Below are positions 9,679 to 35,898 of a stretch of 64,000 nt of DNA, one piece after another. Each line of letters begins with the position of its first letter. The first letter of the stretch is position 1. A program made the translations under genes and the position numbers. The stretch lies in NCBI RefSeq assembly GCF_009914755.1, contig NC_060947.1. The stretch is one strand, 5' to 3'. Below the pieces are notes generated by a model. The model did no database searches. It was given only the letters and a program-made list of their open reading frames with translations, and was not told where the DNA came from. Source of the stretch: the human T2T-CHM13v2.0 reference genome, Homo sapiens.

Positions 9679-10330
9679 ACACACACACTTTAAACAGAAG
9701 GTTTGCTGCAGTTGTTTTTTGCCAGTAGACTCCAGGACAAACCCCAAGTTGGAGGGCAAAGACTTTCACCTCTGTAAAAGAATTGTTCCTTCCATAAGAG
9801 GTTCATCCAGTAAGAAAAATGGTAGTAGAGAAAGAGACTTAAGCCTGGGTTTATAATCATTGAAGAAGACCCTACCCCACCACCTTGGTCCCTCAGGGAA
9901 GTAGCAGTGGAGAGCAAAACCCAGCTCATTCTACAGAAGCCCTCTTTCATAATGGAAGCACAAATACCTCCCCAAAAGGAGCTGTGCTAACTTTCAAGAG
10001 TGGTGGGCATCCTGTCATGAAACAGCCTGGGCACACAGCTATATGAGTCAGATATGGTAAACACCAAGCATCCCAAGGAGGGAAAGGTTCTCAGAACTAG
10101 CTGCCTCCCCAAGGGAAGGAAGAGTTGTGTTCAAGGCTCCAGGACATCATCCCTCTCACACCACACTATGCTCTGGGCGCATGGAGGGGTGGTGGACCTC
10201 ATACCTCAGGGGCATGTTCTGTTGGAAGTGGCTCAAACGAGACACTTACAAACCTGTCTCAGCAGCCTGCCTGTCAAATTATACCTCTGTGCTGGGTCAA
10301 ACTTTTGGCCAATTAGAACTTAGAAGAGCA

Positions 10331-13190: not shown

Positions 13191-14559
13191 GTCTCATCAC
13201 TACACACTCCATATGTCCATATACAGAAACACCCATTTTTCCCTTTAACAAGCCCACAAATTAAAAAAGGTAATTTCACTTAGAAACTAAGAGAAAGGAA
13301 GTAGCCCAGAGCACAGATGTCAGCCTCAGTCAGGATGTTAAACCAACCCCCCTTAACTCTTTTTCTGTTGTGTGATGAGGTCTCAGGGCTCCAGCCCCCA
13401 CAGGAACTGTCGTCCTGCCAGAATTTAACTCACTGGAACCCAAGAGTGACTCACTGGGATGGACAGTCATGAGTTGGATGACAACTTGCTGGGATCTCTA
13501 GCATCAGATTGAGGAATGAGGGTGGACTAGATGGAGCAGATAAATGACTTTTAAAGTCTGTCCTTAATGCAAGATTCTGAGATTTTTACAGTTGTGACAT
13601 ACTTGAGACTGAAATGACCAGATAGTATTGAGTTCTGGGCTTTATACATTAAGAGGAACAAACTAGAATATGTCCAGGGGAGTGTTAGTAGGATGGAGCA
13701 GGGACTGGAGACCGTGTCACTGTCTCAAAACCAACGTGAACTAAGTGCCTACTGCATGCCAGACACTGGACTCAGCACTAGGCATCCAGATTAATGAGGT
13801 ACAGCCTTTTGACTTCAAGAACTCACTTGAGTGATCAAATCTAGAAATAGGAGTTTAATAATAACAACATTCATTGAATGCTTGCAATACATCACACACT
13901 GTTCAAAGCTTTGTGCTTGTATTATCTGATTTAATCCCTATTTCACAGGTGAGGAAACTGGGACACAGAGAGGTTACATGTGGTGACAGTTTGGTGCCAT
14001 GAAGATTGATTGAAAGATCTAGGGCTGTCTAGCCTGAAGAAGATTCAAGGGAATGTGGGCCTCTTGTCTTCAGACTTCTCTCAGAGTCCAAGAGAACAGG
14101 TGTATTTGTACATGGCCACTGAGGGCAGAGCTGGAACCCAAGAGTGGAAGCATATCTGGACTTAATGAAAGGAAAAAATCTGCCTTAGGAGTCAGAGTTG
14201 TCTGTGGGTAAAACAGGTTGCCTGGAGAGGAAGGGAGATGTCTAAGCAGAGGCTGGATGATCACTCAAGAAGGGAGGAGGTGAAGAAGATGTTCCTAAAG
14301 GTTTCTTGTAGTTCTGAGGGGCTAGACATCTCTATTTTCTGGCTGCACACTAGCTTGAGGACCCAAATATGTCCCTTTAAAGTCCTATGGATATCCATAC
14401 TTCAGCTGTCAGAGATAAATATGCCCATCTCTGTATGTAGGAAGCCCCTGTGGCCTGCTTTTATGCTCATCCTTCTGCACAGAGTCCCTAATTATCTTCT
14501 TTTGTCCCATGCCGAAGGGGTTTGGGGCCATGCTTTGAAAAGAATCCCACCACAGTCCT

Positions 14560-16450
14560 CTACCTCAAGTTTCCTGCTCAGGTCTAAGGCTGATCTTATT
14601 GCAGTGGAACTGCAGACAAGAGCTAAACAATGGTTCTTCTTCAGTAGGGTGGTCAGACCACAGCAGATGACCAGCAGGCCAGTCACCATCAGCAAAGTCC
14701 AGGTAGCCCAAGGCCCCCACGCCTCATACATGGTGGACTGTGGTCACCCATTACTGCCAAGATATATGCTCTGTCCTTCCTCTAAGTCTAGCACACTCAC
14801 ATTGGCCCTTAGCAAAGCATCCAGCAGTGGAGAAGATTGCTAGAGATAGCTAAGTTAGTGAGGTGGCCAGGTATGGCTTTCAGGGTCCCTCCTTCCAGGG
14901 CTTGCAGCCTATTGTAGTGGAGGCCCAGACTAGCCAGGGGGAACCAGCCAAGGCCCTCAGGAAGGCTTCTCACCTTATCAGGGCTGTCCAAAACATGGAG
15001 CTTCTGCAGGCAGAGGGGCCATGCCTGGGAGCGCTTCATCCCATTGGCCTACAGAGAAAGCTTCTGCAAGGAGAACTGCAAGCCTCAAAAGGTCCCTGGG
15101 GTTAAAAACCATCCTCATGTTGCCAGAGAGATCCAGGCAGTGGAGAGTGGCAGGGGCAGACTCCTAAACGTAGGACCCTGGCTCATTCTTTCGAAGGCTC
15201 AGATTCTTCACTAGGAAAGCTGTCCTGGTGAAGGCTGGGGCCGGGGGTCAATGGTGCTTCTGAGGGAGGGGCTCTTTCCCGATGCTCCATGCCCCCAAAA
15301 CAGGTACAATATGTTGTCCTCCAAGTCTACAGCTTTCAGCCTGGGCATAATCTCAAAAAACCAGACAGGCGCACCTGAATCAGATTCCATGGAAATCCAG
15401 AGATGTCATGGGCAGAAGGACAGTGGAGAAGTAGGGAATGGCCTTGGAACTGGTGACGCCATGGGCAGTGGGCTGTCACATTTCAGAGACAGTTCTAGGC
15501 CATGCTGAGGTGCTGAAGGGCAGGAAGCCTACCAAGGAAGTCTCTTGGGAATGATACCAGTCAGTTTCTACTTAGGTCAAGTGGGATATGCCAAGATAAT
15601 GTCACTCAGGTTGGATGTTACGTCATGGCTGCTCCGAGTCAGATTCCACTAGTCACCTCTTAGTACCAACTGGCAACCCCCCATACTGGAGATAGGGGAT
15701 TTGGTTCTAGAGACATCAGGTAGTTGTCAAAGAAGGGAAACTGTCAGAGATGGTTTGGGGTAGGGAGAAGTGGGAAGGTGCTCAGAAGCCAGTTATGACT
15801 CGGGTCTAATACCTGAAACTAGTATGCCCCATCTCACTCCTCAGCTGCAAATAACTGCAGGGCACTGGGCCTCTAGTGGAGCTGCCACAGGTTGGGGAGG
15901 CTAAAGGCAGAGATGCAGTGAAGATAATTGCTGGCCGAGCTGAGCTCCTACAGCAGGGGCAAGCCAGCCAAGGCCCCTGACTCAATTTCCAGAATGTACT
16001 TGCTGCTCAGGTTGATCCAACAGCAAAGGGGAGCCCAAGAAGGTGCCCCAGGCCAGGCGAGTCATGTAGTTATCTGAGAGATTTAGGCTCTCCAAGAAGC
16101 TGAGTTTGACCACCTATGGCACCATTGAGGCAGTTGGCCGAGAGATATGGAACCCAAAAGCGACACAAGAACTGGAGTGCTCTGTCATTAGCCAGATGGT
16201 TATGGTCCAGGAGGTTGGAAGCCAGGATGAGGGAGCAGAGCCAGTGAAGCTGGTGGAGGGCTTCTGAGACCAAAACCTTCAGCTGGTTGCCCCAAAAGTC
16301 CAAGTGTTGAAGCCTTGGTCTGGCCTCAGTTGCACCATCCCCCCTAGAACTTTTAGAAGAAGGTTGTGAGAGAGGTCAAGTTGTTCCACACTACATGGGA
16401 GCCCTGCCAGAAACATTTGGAAGCAGAAGCCCTGGCAGAAAACACTCGGC
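14560..16450 (-). pseudogene. Decayed LRRC32 (GARP)/NRROS (LRRC33)-like leucine-rich-repeat transmembrane gene, main coding exon
   Basis: Manual minus-strand translation across frameshifts and stops: PSVFCQG..LPCSVEQLDLSHNLL / LQHLDFWGNQL..LCSLILASNLL / LESLNLSDNYMTRLAWGTF / INLSSKYILEIESGALAGL / ASNYLHCISAFSLPNL / FQVLDPSHNWLLSTFPLLP / LDLSRN*LVSFPRDFLGRLPALQHLSMA*NCL / GLQFSLQKLSL*ANGM / LASLGLHYNRL..LTNLAISSNLLHC / TM-like TWTLLMVTGLLVICCGLTTLLKK. Motifs are colinear with LRRC32/NRROS; pyrimidine tract + AG at 16480-16451. 3' end approximate. Confidence 0.85.
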
Positions 16451-17020
16451 CTGGCCATCAGGGTTGGGGAGAGAGAAGAGTATCTTGGGAGCTAGTGAAA
16501 GAGTAGGGTGGAGTTGGGGAGGAAGAGATGAACCCCATACCCTCAAAACAAAAGATCTTGAGCACCAAGATCTGTGTAATGTAATGCCAAATACATTACC
16601 TCACTCCAAGAAGTAGGGGTGGTTGTTCCTGTCTTACTAGATAATGAGAGAAGCTCAAAAAAGTGAAGTGACCTGCCCAGCGTACAGGATTTTAACCCAA
16701 GTCTGGCTGACTCAAAGCCCATGCTCTTTCAGTTTATCTTACCTCCTTGAGTGTATCTTTTTCTACTTCAAAAACCCCTTGTTCCCTATGGCAACAGGAA
16801 ATTTGTTTCTATCCATGAATGAATCAGGCGGTCTTACGGTACAATGCAATCAATATGATCCTCGAATGTTAGAGCTGGAAGAGACCTTAGAGAGCATTTC
16901 TCTCTGACAACCCTCTCATTTTATAACTAGCACAACAAAAGGCTCAGAGATGGGAAGAGGCTTGTTGAAGGGAACAGCAAATCCGAGCCTGCCTGCTCAG
17001 CCCCTGCCCCAGGAGCTCAC

Positions 17021-17130: not shown

Positions 17131-17297
17131 CAAGGACAGGAGGAACCAACTTCTAGCCCTTTCCCTTGGAAAAAGAGTCAACCAGGAAGGTTCTCCACTC
17201 CCCAACCCCCACCCCCAACCCTACTCCCTGGAGAATATAACTTACGGGGTAAAAAGGGGTTTTGAGGTTAAAAAAAAAAAAAACAAAAACATGAGTT

Positions 17298-18264
<967 letters not shown>

Positions 18265-33853: not shown

Positions 33854-34544
33854 AGACTCAGCAATGTTTTAAACAAAAAGTCATTTTAAAAAATTTAATC
33901 TTTTTGTCAGTTCAGTTCCATGTAATTAATTCTCATTCTGCTTGATGTTAAGTTACTAGTTTCATGAGCCCATCAGTTTCTTCGTTACAGTTCTGGAAAT
34001 TCTTACCCAGTCCAATGGTATGATCGTAAAGTTATCATAAACCTGTATCCCAGAGTACAGAGTACTGTATCATTCATTTAACAAGAGTCATAATTAAGAC
34101 TTCAAAGGCAAATAAAGAATAGCCTTAGCTCTTATAATAGATAGGACTCTGTTTTCTTTTAAGTAGTCAAAGACCTGATAAAAGACAACATGAAGCACAG
34201 GAAATTATTTTGATAAGTAACAAAAATCTTTTCATTTAGGCAGATCACTCAAAAGGTAAAAACAAATCTTTCACTGTCTCTCATCACTACTATAAGAAAA
34301 TCTTGTCATTTTAAAGGAGAAGACCAATTCTAGTTTTGCCATCAGTGTACTTTTGATATTAAGGCTCATTTTTAAAACGCTTATAACAAATTCATTAAAT
34401 TTTAGTCAGTTTGACCACACAAGATTCTCCCTCACTTACTCTCTCTCTTCCCAATTTTACATCCATTAAATTTTTGTCCATCTTTTCTTCATTTGTTCTG
34501 AAACAATCTTTAAATAACCTCCCAACTGAACAAAATTATCTTTC

Positions 34545-35099
34545 TGTAGAAAGTAGAAAAGTTCGTCTTCAAAGCTTATCTTGGTTTAAAAATAAAATAA
34601 TAGACACTAGGAATAATAGCTTCTTACTCTAAAGCCTCCTATCAACTATCAGTTCTTATACTTTAGCCCCGTTAGCTGCTTTGGCTTACCCGGGCATGTC
34701 TGGACAGGCCCAGGCAAGTCTTAGCTTATAGCTTACAGCCCTTCCTCATTTGGAAATGTTATTGCTTCCTTAAACCTTTCATAAGCAACTTCCTCTCCTT
34801 CTTTGTTCCCCCTTGCACTTACCTATTTAGGAAAGATTTAGGCTATCAGCAAATCGGGTATCAGTTTAAGACTGTGAGGTCCAGCTCCAGCCAATGGATG
34901 CAGGACACAGCAGTAAGGACAACCCAAATGTGTAAGGGATAAATATGTCTTCTTTTCCTTTGTTCAAGTGTGCTATCACCATTGTTCCATCTGTGAGAGG
35001 CACCCTTTCTGCAGAAAGTAAAAATGGCCTTGCTGAGAGAATTAAATTTATGTTCAAGTGCTATTTCTTTGCAGCACCAGGGAACAAGCATTTCTAACG
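34545..35099 (+). mobile_element. Solo LTR10-family LTR
   Basis: Starts TGTAGAAAGTAGAAAAGTTCGTCTTCAAAG; 5-bp TSD CTTTC (34540-34544, 35100-35104). Confidence 0.8.
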
Positions 35100-35225
35100 C
35101 TTTCCCTCAACAACAAAAAAACACATTCACATACCGTAGATCATCTTTCTTTGTACATTTTGTATACAATGTTCTCTTATTTCTAGTAGTTTTGATTACA
35201 TGTTAGGATTTTAAGTCTTAGTAAC

Positions 35226-35898
<673 letters not shown>

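What the first reader, a model, noticed from the sequence alone, without database searches (positions are those of the whole stretch)
14560..16450. Fossil of a possible third GARP/NRROS-family latent-TGF-beta anchor gene
Seen: stitching three minus-strand ORF fragments across many stops and frameshifts gives a complete-looking LRRNT, about 20 LRRs, a C-terminal cap and a TM helix in one ~1.9 kb exon. Known: LRRC32 and NRROS have this architecture, with nearly all coding sequence in one large exon. The remnant resembles both (ILEIESGAL vs NRROS IFEIEGGAF; HCISAFSL vs LRRC32 TCISDFSL; TFPLLP vs NRROS FFPLLP) and is far from either. Inference: a unitary pseudogene of a distinct paralog rather than a retrocopy, since no poly-A/TSD is seen and a splice acceptor sits where the family's big exon starts. 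Other vertebrates may retain a third TGF-beta-presenting membrane protein that this lineage lost.
Basis: partly seen in the sequence, partly recalled or inferred. Interest (0 to 1): 0.9.

Follow-up and report, generated by a model that had tools for sequence, protein, structure and literature searches.

The report
Dead third GARP/NRROS gene on X
Human Xq13.1 carries the decayed remains of a third relative of the two membrane proteins that anchor latent TGF-beta (GARP and NRROS), a gene still intact in marsupials, birds, reptiles, amphibians and fish but apparently lost in placental mammals.

Summary
Window 14492-16450 (minus strand) is the wreck of one large coding exon. It aligns collinearly with residues 48-653 of a 698-aa wallaby protein named 'TGF-beta activator LRRC32-like': 584 pairs, 50.9% identity, about 16 frameshifts and 10 stops, score 912 against 52 for reversed or shuffled controls.

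In the human genome its only relatives are the NRROS and LRRC32 exons, at 33-35% identity, with no DNA-level copy. In a 47-row tree the fossil is sister to the marsupial 'LRRC32-like' proteins (100/100), inside a group with turtles, birds, a lizard and amphibians. Forcing it to the LRRC32+NRROS side is rejected (p-AU 1.3e-12). The same marsupial, turtle and bird species also carry LRRC32 proper.

The locus lies beside DLG3 and among DGAT2-family genes, mirroring NRROS-DLG1 and LRRC32-DGAT2/DLG2. An AG and pyrimidine tract sit where the paralogues' big exon starts. Both cysteines that tie LRRC33 to latent TGF-beta are kept.

Not tested: synteny in outgroups, shared disabling mutations, any biochemistry. 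No paper describing this paralogue was found.

The parts
14492..16450 (-). Remnant of the single large coding exon of a third LRRC32/NRROS-family gene: second LRRNT cysteine through LRRs, C-terminal cap, TM helix, tail and stop. It is broken by about 16 frameshifts and at least 10 stops.
   Evidence: Frameshift-aware alignment to wallaby P0002 residues 48-653, window 16443-14633, 584 pairs, 50.9% identity, score 912 against 52 for controls. ORF listing and three-frame layout. Stop at 14494-14492.
16451..16480 (-). Likely retained 3' splice site of the intron before the big exon: pyrimidine tract 16480-16466, CTGAT at 16461-16457, AG at 16452-16451.
   Evidence: Sequence read. The AG lies 13 nt before the LRRNT Cys codon, against 18 nt in both human NRROS and LRRC32. 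Protein similarity to orthologues fades upstream of here, with no first LRRNT Cys and no signal peptide.
16429..16443 (-). LRRNT motif VFCQG (wallaby VSCQG; LRRC32 VSCQV).
15969..15998 (-). Y-ILEIESGAL. The Tyr aligns with LRRC33 Tyr174, a residue of the non-covalent latent-TGF-beta interface.
   Evidence: Alignment to 7y1r_E. The numbering offset of 16 was derived from that alignment and Cys201/Cys345 in PMC9411592. Column counts. Coordinates.
15909..15929 (-). NYLHCIS. The Cys codon at 15917-15915 is equivalent to LRRC33 Cys201, the first disulfide to LAP Cys4.
15477..15494 (-). NCL*NV. The Cys codon at 15491-15489 is equivalent to LRRC33 Cys345, the second disulfide to LAP Cys4. A stop codon sits two codons after it.
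14642..14710 (-). Transmembrane helix WATWTLLMVTGLLVICCGLTTLL, followed by KKN.
   Evidence: It aligns with the wallaby TM segment.
14492..14641 (-). Short cytoplasmic tail (about 46 codons) and stop codon. The length is similar to the wallaby tail; the sequence is barely similar.
   Evidence: ORF 14492..14743. Wallaby tail read. The alignment ends at 14633.

Best explanation
Window 14492-16450 (minus strand; chrX:68,524,492-68,526,450 of T2T-CHM13) is a very old unitary pseudogene. It is the human remnant of a third paralogue of LRRC32 (GARP) and NRROS (LRRC33). That gene survives intact as the 'LRRC32-like' models of marsupials, turtles, birds, lizards and amphibians, and probably of rays and ray-finned fish, and it has no intact copy in humans. 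The three genes most likely arose with the early vertebrate genome duplications, since each lies in a matching paralogous block. The X-linked copy was probably inactivated around or before the radiation of placental mammals and has drifted since. The ancestral product was a type I membrane protein with an LRR horseshoe of about 20 repeats. By inference, it tethered a latent TGF-beta-family ligand to the cell surface through two cysteines that disulfide-bond to Cys4 of the prodomain, as GARP and LRRC33 do. Shown here: homology, tree placement, decay, paralogon position and conserved residues. Inferred: the time of loss, loss across all eutherians, and ligand tethering.
For: Family:
- P0001 matches LRRC33 at 1.8e-16 and LRRC32 at about 1e-13; the next family scores 1.6e-5.
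- In the human genome only 3 places match at E <= 1: the locus itself, chr3:199.38 Mb (a 663-aa open exon, NRROS) and chr11:76.59 Mb (LRRC32).

Orthology:
- The best of 86 representatives is wallaby P0002, at 47% identity and 7e-34.
- Frameshift-aware scores fall in step with phylogeny: wallaby 912, devil 753, turtle 592, caecilian 542, bird 535, axolotl 480, lizard 423, ray 376, Polypterus 362. Bird NRROS scores 254, lemur LRRC32 234, the human LRRC32 exon 223 and the human NRROS exon 219. Controls score 52.
- In the careful tree, the fossil plus 4 marsupial proteins get 100/100, and that group within amniotes gets 99/92. A 68-row quick tree gives the same placement.
- The AU test rejects the fossil on the LRRC32+NRROS side (delta lnL 127.65, p 1.3e-12).
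- The fossil's translation was guided by a turtle protein, not a marsupial one.

Separate paralogue: Sarcophilus, Sminthopsis, Petaurus, Macrotis, Emydura, Carettochelys, Malaclemys, Anser and Cyanocitta each carry both LRRC32 and the 'LRRC32-like' protein.

Not a copy of a living human gene: a DNA search of the genome finds only the locus itself.

Position:
- DLG-type PDZ_assoc hits lie at chr3:199.845 Mb (0.47 Mb from NRROS), chr11:83.90 Mb (7.3 Mb from LRRC32), chrX:68.885 Mb (0.36 Mb from the fossil) and chr17:7.10 Mb.
- DAGAT-family exons lie at chr11:75.65-75.73 Mb (0.86 Mb from LRRC32) and at chrX:68.475, 68.634 and 68.670 Mb, flanking the fossil.

Gene structure: the AG lies 13 nt before the LRRNT Cys, against 18 nt in both paralogues, and follows a pyrimidine tract.

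Decay:
- About 16 frameshifts and 10 stops along the alignment, and 12 stops within 195 codons of one frame.
- The fossil keeps 60 of 78 columns that are invariant in 17 intact orthologues. Each intact protein, left out in turn, keeps 87-100%.
- The fossil's end branch is 0.85, against about 0.37-0.45 for marsupials from the same node.

Function:
- Cys site 1 is C in 29 of 35 third-type rows and Cys site 2 in 35 of 35. The fossil has C at both, and the 4 outgroup rows have C at neither.
- LRRC33 Cys201 and Cys345 bond to LAP Cys4 (PMC9411592, passages read).
- Wallaby P0002 matches LRRC32 at 1.6e-78 over residues 19-605 and LRRC33 at 3e-66.
Against: - Synteny of the outgroup genes with IGBP1, AWAT2 or DLG3 was not tested. 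The one attempt returned only eutherian IGBP1 rows, 120 of 120.
- The upstream signal-peptide exon was not found in the window.
- The AG is 5 nt off the paralogues' position.
- With a 3-row outgroup, the third-type proteins form a grade rather than a clade, with weak supports of 88/60, 84/88 and 88/84. The AU test does not reject monophyly (p 0.284), so orthology of the fish genes to the tetrapod group is not settled.
- The absence of eutherian orthologues rests on predicted-protein databases, not on genome alignments. No monotreme third-type protein was seen either.
- Cys site 1 is missing in 6 of 35 third-type rows: Bombina, Denticeps and 4 unnamed representatives.
- No binding data exist for any third-type protein.
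- The frameshift-aware aligner picks the best-matching frame, so identity and retention are somewhat inflated and the frameshift count is approximate.
Confidence: 0.88

Rival explanations
1. An old relocated copy (retrocopy or DNA duplicate) of the third paralogue landed here, and the original locus elsewhere was deleted. The fossil would then be a duplicated or processed pseudogene, not a unitary one.
For: Nearly all of the coding sequence sits in one exon, so a retrocopy would look much the same. The upstream exon was not found. Outgroup synteny is untested.
Against: The locus sits in the block expected for a third ohnologue: DLG3 is 0.36 Mb away and DGAT2-family genes lie on both sides, mirroring NRROS-DLG1 and LRRC32-DGAT2/DLG2. 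By my own rough estimate, a random insertion would fall within 0.5 Mb of DLG3 or DLG4 about 6 times in 10,000. Homology stops at an AG and pyrimidine tract within 5 nt of the paralogues' acceptor, and there is no contiguous signal-peptide or first-Cys coding sequence. No second copy exists in the genome. No A-run longer than 5 lies in the 3.09 kb downstream, though this is weak evidence after such a long time.
Confidence: 0.06
2. A pseudogene copy, processed or duplicated, of human LRRC32 or NRROS itself.
For: These are the only two human relatives. The architecture and motifs are shared.
Against: Protein-level identity to them is only 33-37%, with alignment scores of 219-223 against 912 for wallaby. 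There is no DNA-level match. The AU test rejects any placement on the LRRC32+NRROS side (p 1.3e-12). The tree gives 100/100 with the marsupial third-type proteins.
Confidence: 0.01
3. Not fully dead: the locus is still used in humans as a non-coding RNA or regulatory element, or encodes a short peptide.
For: Transcription and chromatin data could not be consulted. RefSeq functional elements in the window (silencer 9707-9941, enhancer 34142-35341; hub table) do not overlap the locus.
Against: The longest open piece is 101 codons. Retention at invariant columns is 77%, against 87-100% in intact genes. The RefSeq table for the window lists no gene model here.
Confidence: 0.04
4. A chance assembly of LRR-like ORFs, or the relic of some other LRR family (TLR, LGR, LINGO, IGFALS and the like).
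For: Short single pieces give weak and ambiguous hits. With the 101-aa piece, LGR4 and LRRC32 score alike at E about 0.003.
Against: The 195-codon read-through separates the families by 8 or more orders of magnitude. The alignment to the wallaby protein is collinear over 606 residues, with score 912 against 52 for controls.
Confidence: 0.005

Closest known systems
NRROS / LRRC33 (human 3q29; structure 7Y1R)
   Same: Collinear LRR ectodomain, with fossil P0001 residues 16-193 aligning to chain residues 184-363 at 1.8e-16. Both share a single large coding exon with an acceptor just before the second LRRNT Cys, a TM helix and a short tail. Both TGF-beta-linking cysteines (Cys201, Cys345) and Tyr174 have equivalents in the fossil and in the wallaby orthologue. 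NRROS also neighbours a DLG paralogue.
   Different: NRROS is a distinct clade, about 35-37% identical to the fossil. NRROS is intact and functional in humans; the fossil is broken by about 26 disabling lesions.
LRRC32 / GARP (human 11q13.5; structures 6GFF, 8VSB and others)
   Same: Same architecture and exon structure. The wallaby orthologue of the fossil matches GARP at 1.6e-78 over residues 19-605. Both cysteines are conserved. DGAT2-family and DLG neighbours mirror the X locus.
   Different: LRRC32 is a separate clade that includes echidna, marsupial, turtle, bird, snake and shark LRRC32. It has V, I or M rather than Tyr at the LRRC33-Tyr174 column in 14 of 14 rows. The human exon is 33.5% identical to the fossil.
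'Transforming growth factor beta activator LRRC32-like' gene models of non-eutherian vertebrates (for example Notamacropus eugenii P0002, Sarcophilus P0094, Emydura P0096, Catharus P0099)
   Same: These are the fossil's apparent orthologues: 50.9% identity over 584 aligned codons with wallaby and sister position at 100/100. They have the same length and domain order, including the TM helix and a tail of about 46 residues.
   Different: They are intact open reading frames of 660-705 aa. They are known only as automatic annotations. The searches for 'LRRC32-like', 'LRRC33-like', 'NRROS-like' and 'LRRC32L' found no paper on them.

Membership tests
LRRC32/NRROS family of membrane anchors for latent TGF-beta | Ectodomain homologous along its length to LRRC32 and LRRC33, and clearly closer to them than to other LRR families | tested here: met
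   Fossil P0001 scores 1.8e-16 and about 1e-13 against them, with 1.6e-5 for the next family. Only NRROS and LRRC32 match in the human genome. Wallaby orthologue: 1.6e-78 and 3e-66, against 1.7e-30 for IGFALS.
LRRC32/NRROS family of membrane anchors for latent TGF-beta | Type I membrane architecture: LRRNT, about 20 LRRs, C-terminal cap, one TM helix, short tail | tested here: met
   Collinear alignment from VFCQG to the TM helix and KK. 16 LRR cores are still recognisable, against 20-21 in intact members. The signal peptide and first LRRNT Cys, which lie on an upstream exon, were not found.
LRRC32/NRROS family of membrane anchors for latent TGF-beta | Nearly all coding sequence in one 3' exon that starts 6 codons before the second LRRNT cysteine | tested here: met
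   The AG lies 18 nt before the Cys codon in both human paralogues and 13 nt before it in the fossil, after a pyrimidine tract. The 5-nt difference is within the indel load of the fossil.
LRRC32/NRROS family of membrane anchors for latent TGF-beta | Two cysteines that disulfide-bond to Cys4 of the TGF-beta prodomain (LRRC33 Cys201 and Cys345) | tested here: met
   Both columns are Cys in the fossil. Third-type rows: 29 of 35 and 35 of 35. LRRC32: 14 of 14 at both. NRROS: 15 of 15 and 14 of 15. Outgroup: 0 of 4 at both. The role of the residues is taken from PMC9411592 passages.
LRRC32/NRROS family of membrane anchors for latent TGF-beta | Forms a covalent complex with proTGF-beta and presents it on the cell surface | not testable with these tools
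   No binding data exist for any third-type protein.
Unitary pseudogene | Disabled coding sequence with no functional copy of the same gene in the genome | tested here: met
   About 16 frameshifts and 10 stops. The locus itself is the only DNA match. The only protein-level relatives are the two distinct paralogues.
Unitary pseudogene | Intact orthologues in other lineages | tested here: met
   9 marsupial clusters at 71-85% identity to wallaby, plus turtles, birds, a lizard and amphibians. Tree placement.
Unitary pseudogene | Lies at the ancestral (syntenic) position of the gene | tested here: inconclusive
   Indirect support only. The paralogon position beside DLG3 and within the DGAT2-family cluster mirrors the two paralogues. 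In the dasyurid assemblies the contigs bearing the gene are 90-100 Mb, while LRRC32 sits on 645-657 Mb contigs. That fits the small marsupial X only by my recollection of karyotypes. The direct test failed.
Processed pseudogene (retrocopy) | Upstream exon sequence joined directly to the big exon, a poly-A tract, and a parent gene elsewhere in the genome | tested here: not met
   Similarity ends at an AG and pyrimidine tract. The longest A run is 5 in the 3.09 kb downstream. There is no parent. The poly-A criterion is weak for so old a sequence.

The most novel reading that the evidence does not exclude
Non-placental vertebrates have a third, so far unstudied membrane 'milieu molecule' that covalently holds a latent TGF-beta-family ligand through the same cysteine pair as GARP and LRRC33. 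It would be an ohnologue from the early vertebrate genome duplications. Placental mammals discarded it at about the time they arose, leaving GARP and LRRC33 as the only LRR anchors studied in mouse and human. Its cell type and ligand preference could reveal a branch of TGF-beta control that is absent from mouse and human models.
Probability: 0.45. Interest if true: 0.75.

Novelty: new member of a known kind. Interest (0 to 1): 0.62.

Why it matters
The TGF-beta literature read here speaks of two LRR membrane anchors, GARP and LRRC33 (PMC9411592, introduction passage). This locus shows the ancestral vertebrate set had at least three. The third is still intact in marsupials, birds, reptiles, amphibians and probably fish, with both ligand-linking cysteines and, in many members, the LRRC33-type Tyr174. 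That gives a testable candidate for a third way of presenting latent TGF-beta, available in chicken, Xenopus, opossum and probably fish models.

For genome annotation it adds an ancient unitary pseudogene that the supplied RefSeq table for this window does not list. For mammalian evolution it adds a signalling or immune-related gene whose loss appears to coincide roughly with the origin of placentals.

It is an extension of a known family, not a new kind of system, and the intact genes are already present as automatic gene models.

Tried and rejected
- Single short ORF pieces were too weak to separate LRR families. With the 101-aa piece, LGR4 and LRRC32 tie near E 0.003 in PDB. In the human genome the 101-aa and 79-aa pieces found only themselves plus chance hits at E > 0.4.
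- tblastn with the human NRROS and LRRC32 exons gave a collinear chain only for the N-terminal half, so I wrote a frameshift-aware aligner instead.
- A search for the upstream signal-peptide exon, using the first 60 residues of 13 orthologues, found nothing consistent. The best E-values were 0.02-0.3 at scattered places.
- The synteny test by contig identity, using the IGBP1 exon as a query for longer proteins, listed 120 rows, all eutherian. It says nothing about marsupials or birds.
- The site-mixture (PMSF) AU test of 'fossil on the LRRC32+NRROS side' did not finish in two calls. I replaced it with an LG+G4 test run directly in IQ-TREE.
- Earlier findings of this scan were not open to the session.
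- Paper searches: 'LRRC32-like' returned 0 papers. 'LRRC33-like / NRROS-like / LRRC32L / GARP-like' returned 33 papers, and the 15 listed concern plant or Giardia GARP factors or trypanosome surface proteins. 'LRRC32 + NRROS + pseudogene' returned one unrelated paper. 'LRRC32 + LRRC33 + paralog + phylogenetic' returned only the 2007 eLRR survey, which treats the two as a pair in mouse and human. The broader searches gave nothing on this family.
- I did not run structure prediction, fold search or complex prediction. Sequence identity to solved GARP and LRRC33 already fixes the fold, and no prodomain from a matching species was in hand.
Full report
**What is in the sequence**

On the minus strand between about 16450 and 14492, the three reading frames hold a chain of short open pieces full of LRR motifs such as LDLSHN, LNLSDN and LDLSGN. 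Pfam LRR_8 matches 3 of the 9 pieces I submitted at E <= 0.0012.

Single pieces cannot tell LRR families apart: the 101-aa piece ties LGR4 and LRRC32 near E 0.003. One frame stays LRR-like for 195 codons (15477-16061) despite 12 stops. Read through with X at the stops (P0001), it matches solved LRRC33 (7y1r_E) at 1.8e-16 and LRRC32 chains at about 1e-13. The alignment is collinear (query 16-193 to chain 184-363), and the next family, LGR4, scores 1.6e-5.

In the whole T2T human genome, P0001 finds three places at E <= 1: itself, chr3:199,379,535-199,380,074 and chr11:76,591,016-76,591,543. The latter two are the large open exons of NRROS (663 codons open) and LRRC32. A DNA search of the genome with the 1,891-bp interval finds only itself.

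**The closest relatives are not human genes**

An exhaustive HMMER search of 1.84 billion representatives with P0001 gave 86 hits. The best is a 698-aa protein, P0002, at 47% identity and 7.4e-34. That is far better than the 35% and 33% of the human paralogues.

A word-indexed search with P0002 attached names to the hits. P0002 is 'transforming growth factor beta activator LRRC32-like [Notamacropus eugenii]'. It is followed by eight more marsupial clusters at 71-85% identity. Next come turtles, many birds, a caecilian, axolotl, Bombina, a lizard, rays, a skate, Polypterus and a teleost, at 35-48%. Only then come eutherian LRRC32 proper (36-38%, E about 1e-75) and bird NRROS (E about 1e-71). 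No eutherian protein appears in the 'LRRC32-like' group among the 120 rows listed.

**Frameshift-aware alignment**

I wrote a protein-to-DNA aligner that allows frame changes and penalises stops.

- Wallaby P0002 residues 48-653 align to window 16443-14633. The alignment has 584 pairs at 50.9% identity, 16 frame changes, 10 stops and score 912.
- Reversed and shuffled wallaby sequences each score 52.
- Scores fall in step with phylogenetic distance: devil 753, turtle 592, caecilian 542, bird 535, axolotl 480, lizard 423, ray 376, Polypterus 362.
- Other family members score far lower: bird NRROS 254, lemur LRRC32 234, human LRRC32 exon 223, human NRROS exon 219.

The alignment covers the second LRRNT cysteine (VFCQG), the LRRs, the C-terminal cap (…LLRANVSVLDLEE…) and a 23-residue hydrophobic helix followed by KK at 14710-14642. 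A tail of about 46 codons ends at the stop at 14494-14492, similar in length to the wallaby tail. The aligner chooses the best frame, so identity is somewhat flattering and the frameshift count is approximate. Other guide proteins gave 8-17 frame changes.

**Trees**

The fossil's read-through translation used in the trees was guided by a turtle protein, to avoid bias towards marsupials.

- A quick 68-row tree (LG+G4) gave three groups: LRRC32 (support 100), core NRROS (100) and a third group (98). The fossil was sister to four marsupial proteins (100).
- A careful 47-row tree used a site-mixture model with ultrafast bootstrap and SH-aLRT supports. The fossil plus marsupials got 100/100. With sauropsids they got 99/92, and with the caecilian 95/87.
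- In the same tree the LRRC32 clade got 100/100. It contains echidna, three marsupials, two turtles, two birds, a snake and a shark. NRROS got 100/96, and LRRC32+NRROS together 100/97.
- Forcing the fossil onto the LRRC32+NRROS side costs 127.65 log-likelihood units, p-AU 1.3e-12 (LG+G4). The site-mixture version of that test did not finish.
- With a three-row outgroup, the third-type proteins appear as a grade, with the fish genes nearer LRRC32+NRROS, on weak supports of 88/60, 84/88 and 88/84. Holding all 18 third-type rows together costs only 2.68 units, p-AU 0.284. Orthology of the fish genes to the tetrapod group is therefore compatible with the data but not proven.

**A separate paralogue, not LRRC32 under another name**

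A search with the echidna LRRC32 (P0062) listed LRRC32 proper from Sarcophilus, Sminthopsis, Petaurus, Macrotis, Emydura, Carettochelys, Malaclemys, Anser and Cyanocitta. The same species each have the 'LRRC32-like' protein. The two genes therefore coexist in marsupials, turtles and birds.

**Position in the genome**

Pfam PDZ_assoc marks four human loci, which by recollection are DLG1-4:

- chr3:199.845 Mb, 0.47 Mb from the NRROS exon
- chr11:83.90 Mb, 7.3 Mb from LRRC32
- chrX:68.885 Mb, 0.36 Mb from the fossil
- chr17:7.10 Mb, where no family member was found

Pfam DAGAT exons lie in two clusters on chr11 at 75.65 and 75.72-75.73 Mb, 0.86 Mb from LRRC32. They also lie at chrX:68.475, 68.634 and 68.670 Mb, which the hub table names AWAT2, DGAT2L6 and AWAT1, on both sides of the fossil. 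The remaining DAGAT hits are on chr2 and chr7.

The fossil thus occupies the slot expected for a third ohnologue in a classic four-fold paralogy block. By my rough estimate, a random insertion would land within 0.5 Mb of DLG3 or DLG4 about 6 times in 10,000. The gene names on chr3, chr11 and chr17 are recalled, not given by a tool.

**Exon structure**

In both human paralogues the large exon starts at an AG exactly 18 nt before the codon of the second LRRNT cysteine. In the fossil an AG at 16452-16451 lies 13 nt before that codon. It is preceded by CTGAT and a 15-nt pyrimidine tract at 16480-16466. Upstream of it, similarity to the orthologues is poor. The first LRRNT cysteine and the signal peptide are absent, as expected if they lay on an upstream exon. 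I could not find that exon.

No A-run longer than 5 occurs in the 3.09 kb downstream of the stop. This is weak evidence, given the age of the sequence.

**How old is the loss?**

At the 78 scored alignment columns that are invariant in all 17 intact third-type proteins, the fossil keeps 60 (77%). Each intact protein, left out in turn, keeps 87-100%. The fossil's terminal branch is 0.85 substitutions per site, against about 0.37-0.45 for marsupials from the same node.

Taking -ln(0.77) = 0.26 replacements per formerly constrained codon gives roughly 0.12-0.17 neutral substitutions per site. By my recollection of human-lineage neutral divergence, that corresponds to the order of 100 million years. 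This is an inference with wide error. It fits the absence of any eutherian orthologue. All partial representatives with good similarity to P0001 proved to be bird, frog, lizard, fish, ray, turtle or monotreme-LRRC32 fragments.

**What the gene probably did**

Passages of PMC9411592 state that Cys4 of each TGF-beta1 prodomain bonds to Cys201 or Cys345 of LRRC33. They state that GARP and LRRC33 are 'two' LRR anchors, and that Y174R disturbs the non-covalent interface.

From the chain numbering (offset 16), these three residues are the C of NNLPC, the C of HQNC and the Y of RNYIFEIE. The fossil has NYLHC, (stop)NC and KYILEIE at those points. In the 68-row alignment:

- Cysteine site 1 is C in 29 of 35 third-type rows. 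The exceptions are Bombina, Denticeps and four unnamed representatives.
- Cysteine site 2 is C in 35 of 35 third-type rows.
- The four outgroup rows have C at neither site.
- The Tyr column is Y in 18 of 35 third-type rows, 10 of 15 NRROS rows and 0 of 14 LRRC32 rows.

The wallaby protein matches GARP over residues 19-605 at 1.6e-78 and LRRC33 at 3e-66, with IGFALS next at 1.7e-30. I therefore think the intact gene encodes a membrane anchor that covalently holds a latent TGF-beta-family ligand. I give that about even-to-good odds, and nothing here tests it.

**Novelty**

The RefSeq table supplied for the window lists no gene or pseudogene at this place. I could not consult GENCODE.

Full-text searches found no paper on a third family member. 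'LRRC32-like' returned 0 papers. The variants returned only unrelated GARP-named plant or protist proteins among the 15 listed of 33. Searches returned nothing relevant. The 2007 eLRR survey treats Lrrc32 and Lrrc33 as a pair (passages). Subscription papers outside the library were not searched.

The intact genes are public as automatic gene models, so this is a new member of a known family plus an unannotated ancient unitary pseudogene, not a new kind of system.

**Verdict**

The main open points are direct synteny in outgroups, lesion sharing among placentals, the status in monotremes, and biochemical function.

Noticed in passing
Proteins P0040 and P0044 (representatives; tree): Two unnamed representatives of 785 and 710 aa form a long-branched pair sister to the whole NRROS clade (100/96). 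They could be a lineage-specific NRROS duplicate or a fourth ohnologue of the family. The tool warns that two long branches meet here.
   Followed up: no
Alignment column of LRRC33 Cys201: 6 of 35 third-type rows lack the first ligand-linking cysteine: Bombina, the teleost Denticeps and four unnamed representatives that group with the ray-finned fish. All 35 keep the second. Fish and frog versions may tether a ligand by one disulfide, or differently.
   Followed up: partly
No monotreme 'LRRC32-like' protein was seen, although echidna LRRC32 proper (P0062) and a monotreme LRRC32 fragment (P0043) were. Monotremes may have lost the third gene independently, or it may be unannotated.
   Followed up: no
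Contig lengths: In the dasyurids the third gene sits on contigs of 90-100 Mb (Sminthopsis, Sarcophilus), while LRRC32 proper sits on contigs of 645-657 Mb. In several passerines the third gene is on contigs of about 20-21 Mb and LRRC32 on contigs of about 120 Mb. This fits the marsupial X and passerine chromosome 4A only by my recollection of karyotypes, so it is a lead, not a test.
   Followed up: partly
window 17259-17614: An Alu-like element (masked in the hub table, read) lies about 0.8 kb upstream of the fossil's acceptor site, inside what would have been the intron.
   Followed up: no
Protein P0032: A 7,341-aa representative matches P0001 over its residues 1430-1608 (5.9e-11). It is probably a fused or mis-predicted gene model containing an LRRC32-family segment.
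   Followed up: no
rows: Several primates and other eutherians carry extra IGBP1 copies on other contigs ('IGBP1-like', 'IGBP1 family member C'), so the neighbouring gene has spawned duplicates or retrocopies.
   Followed up: no
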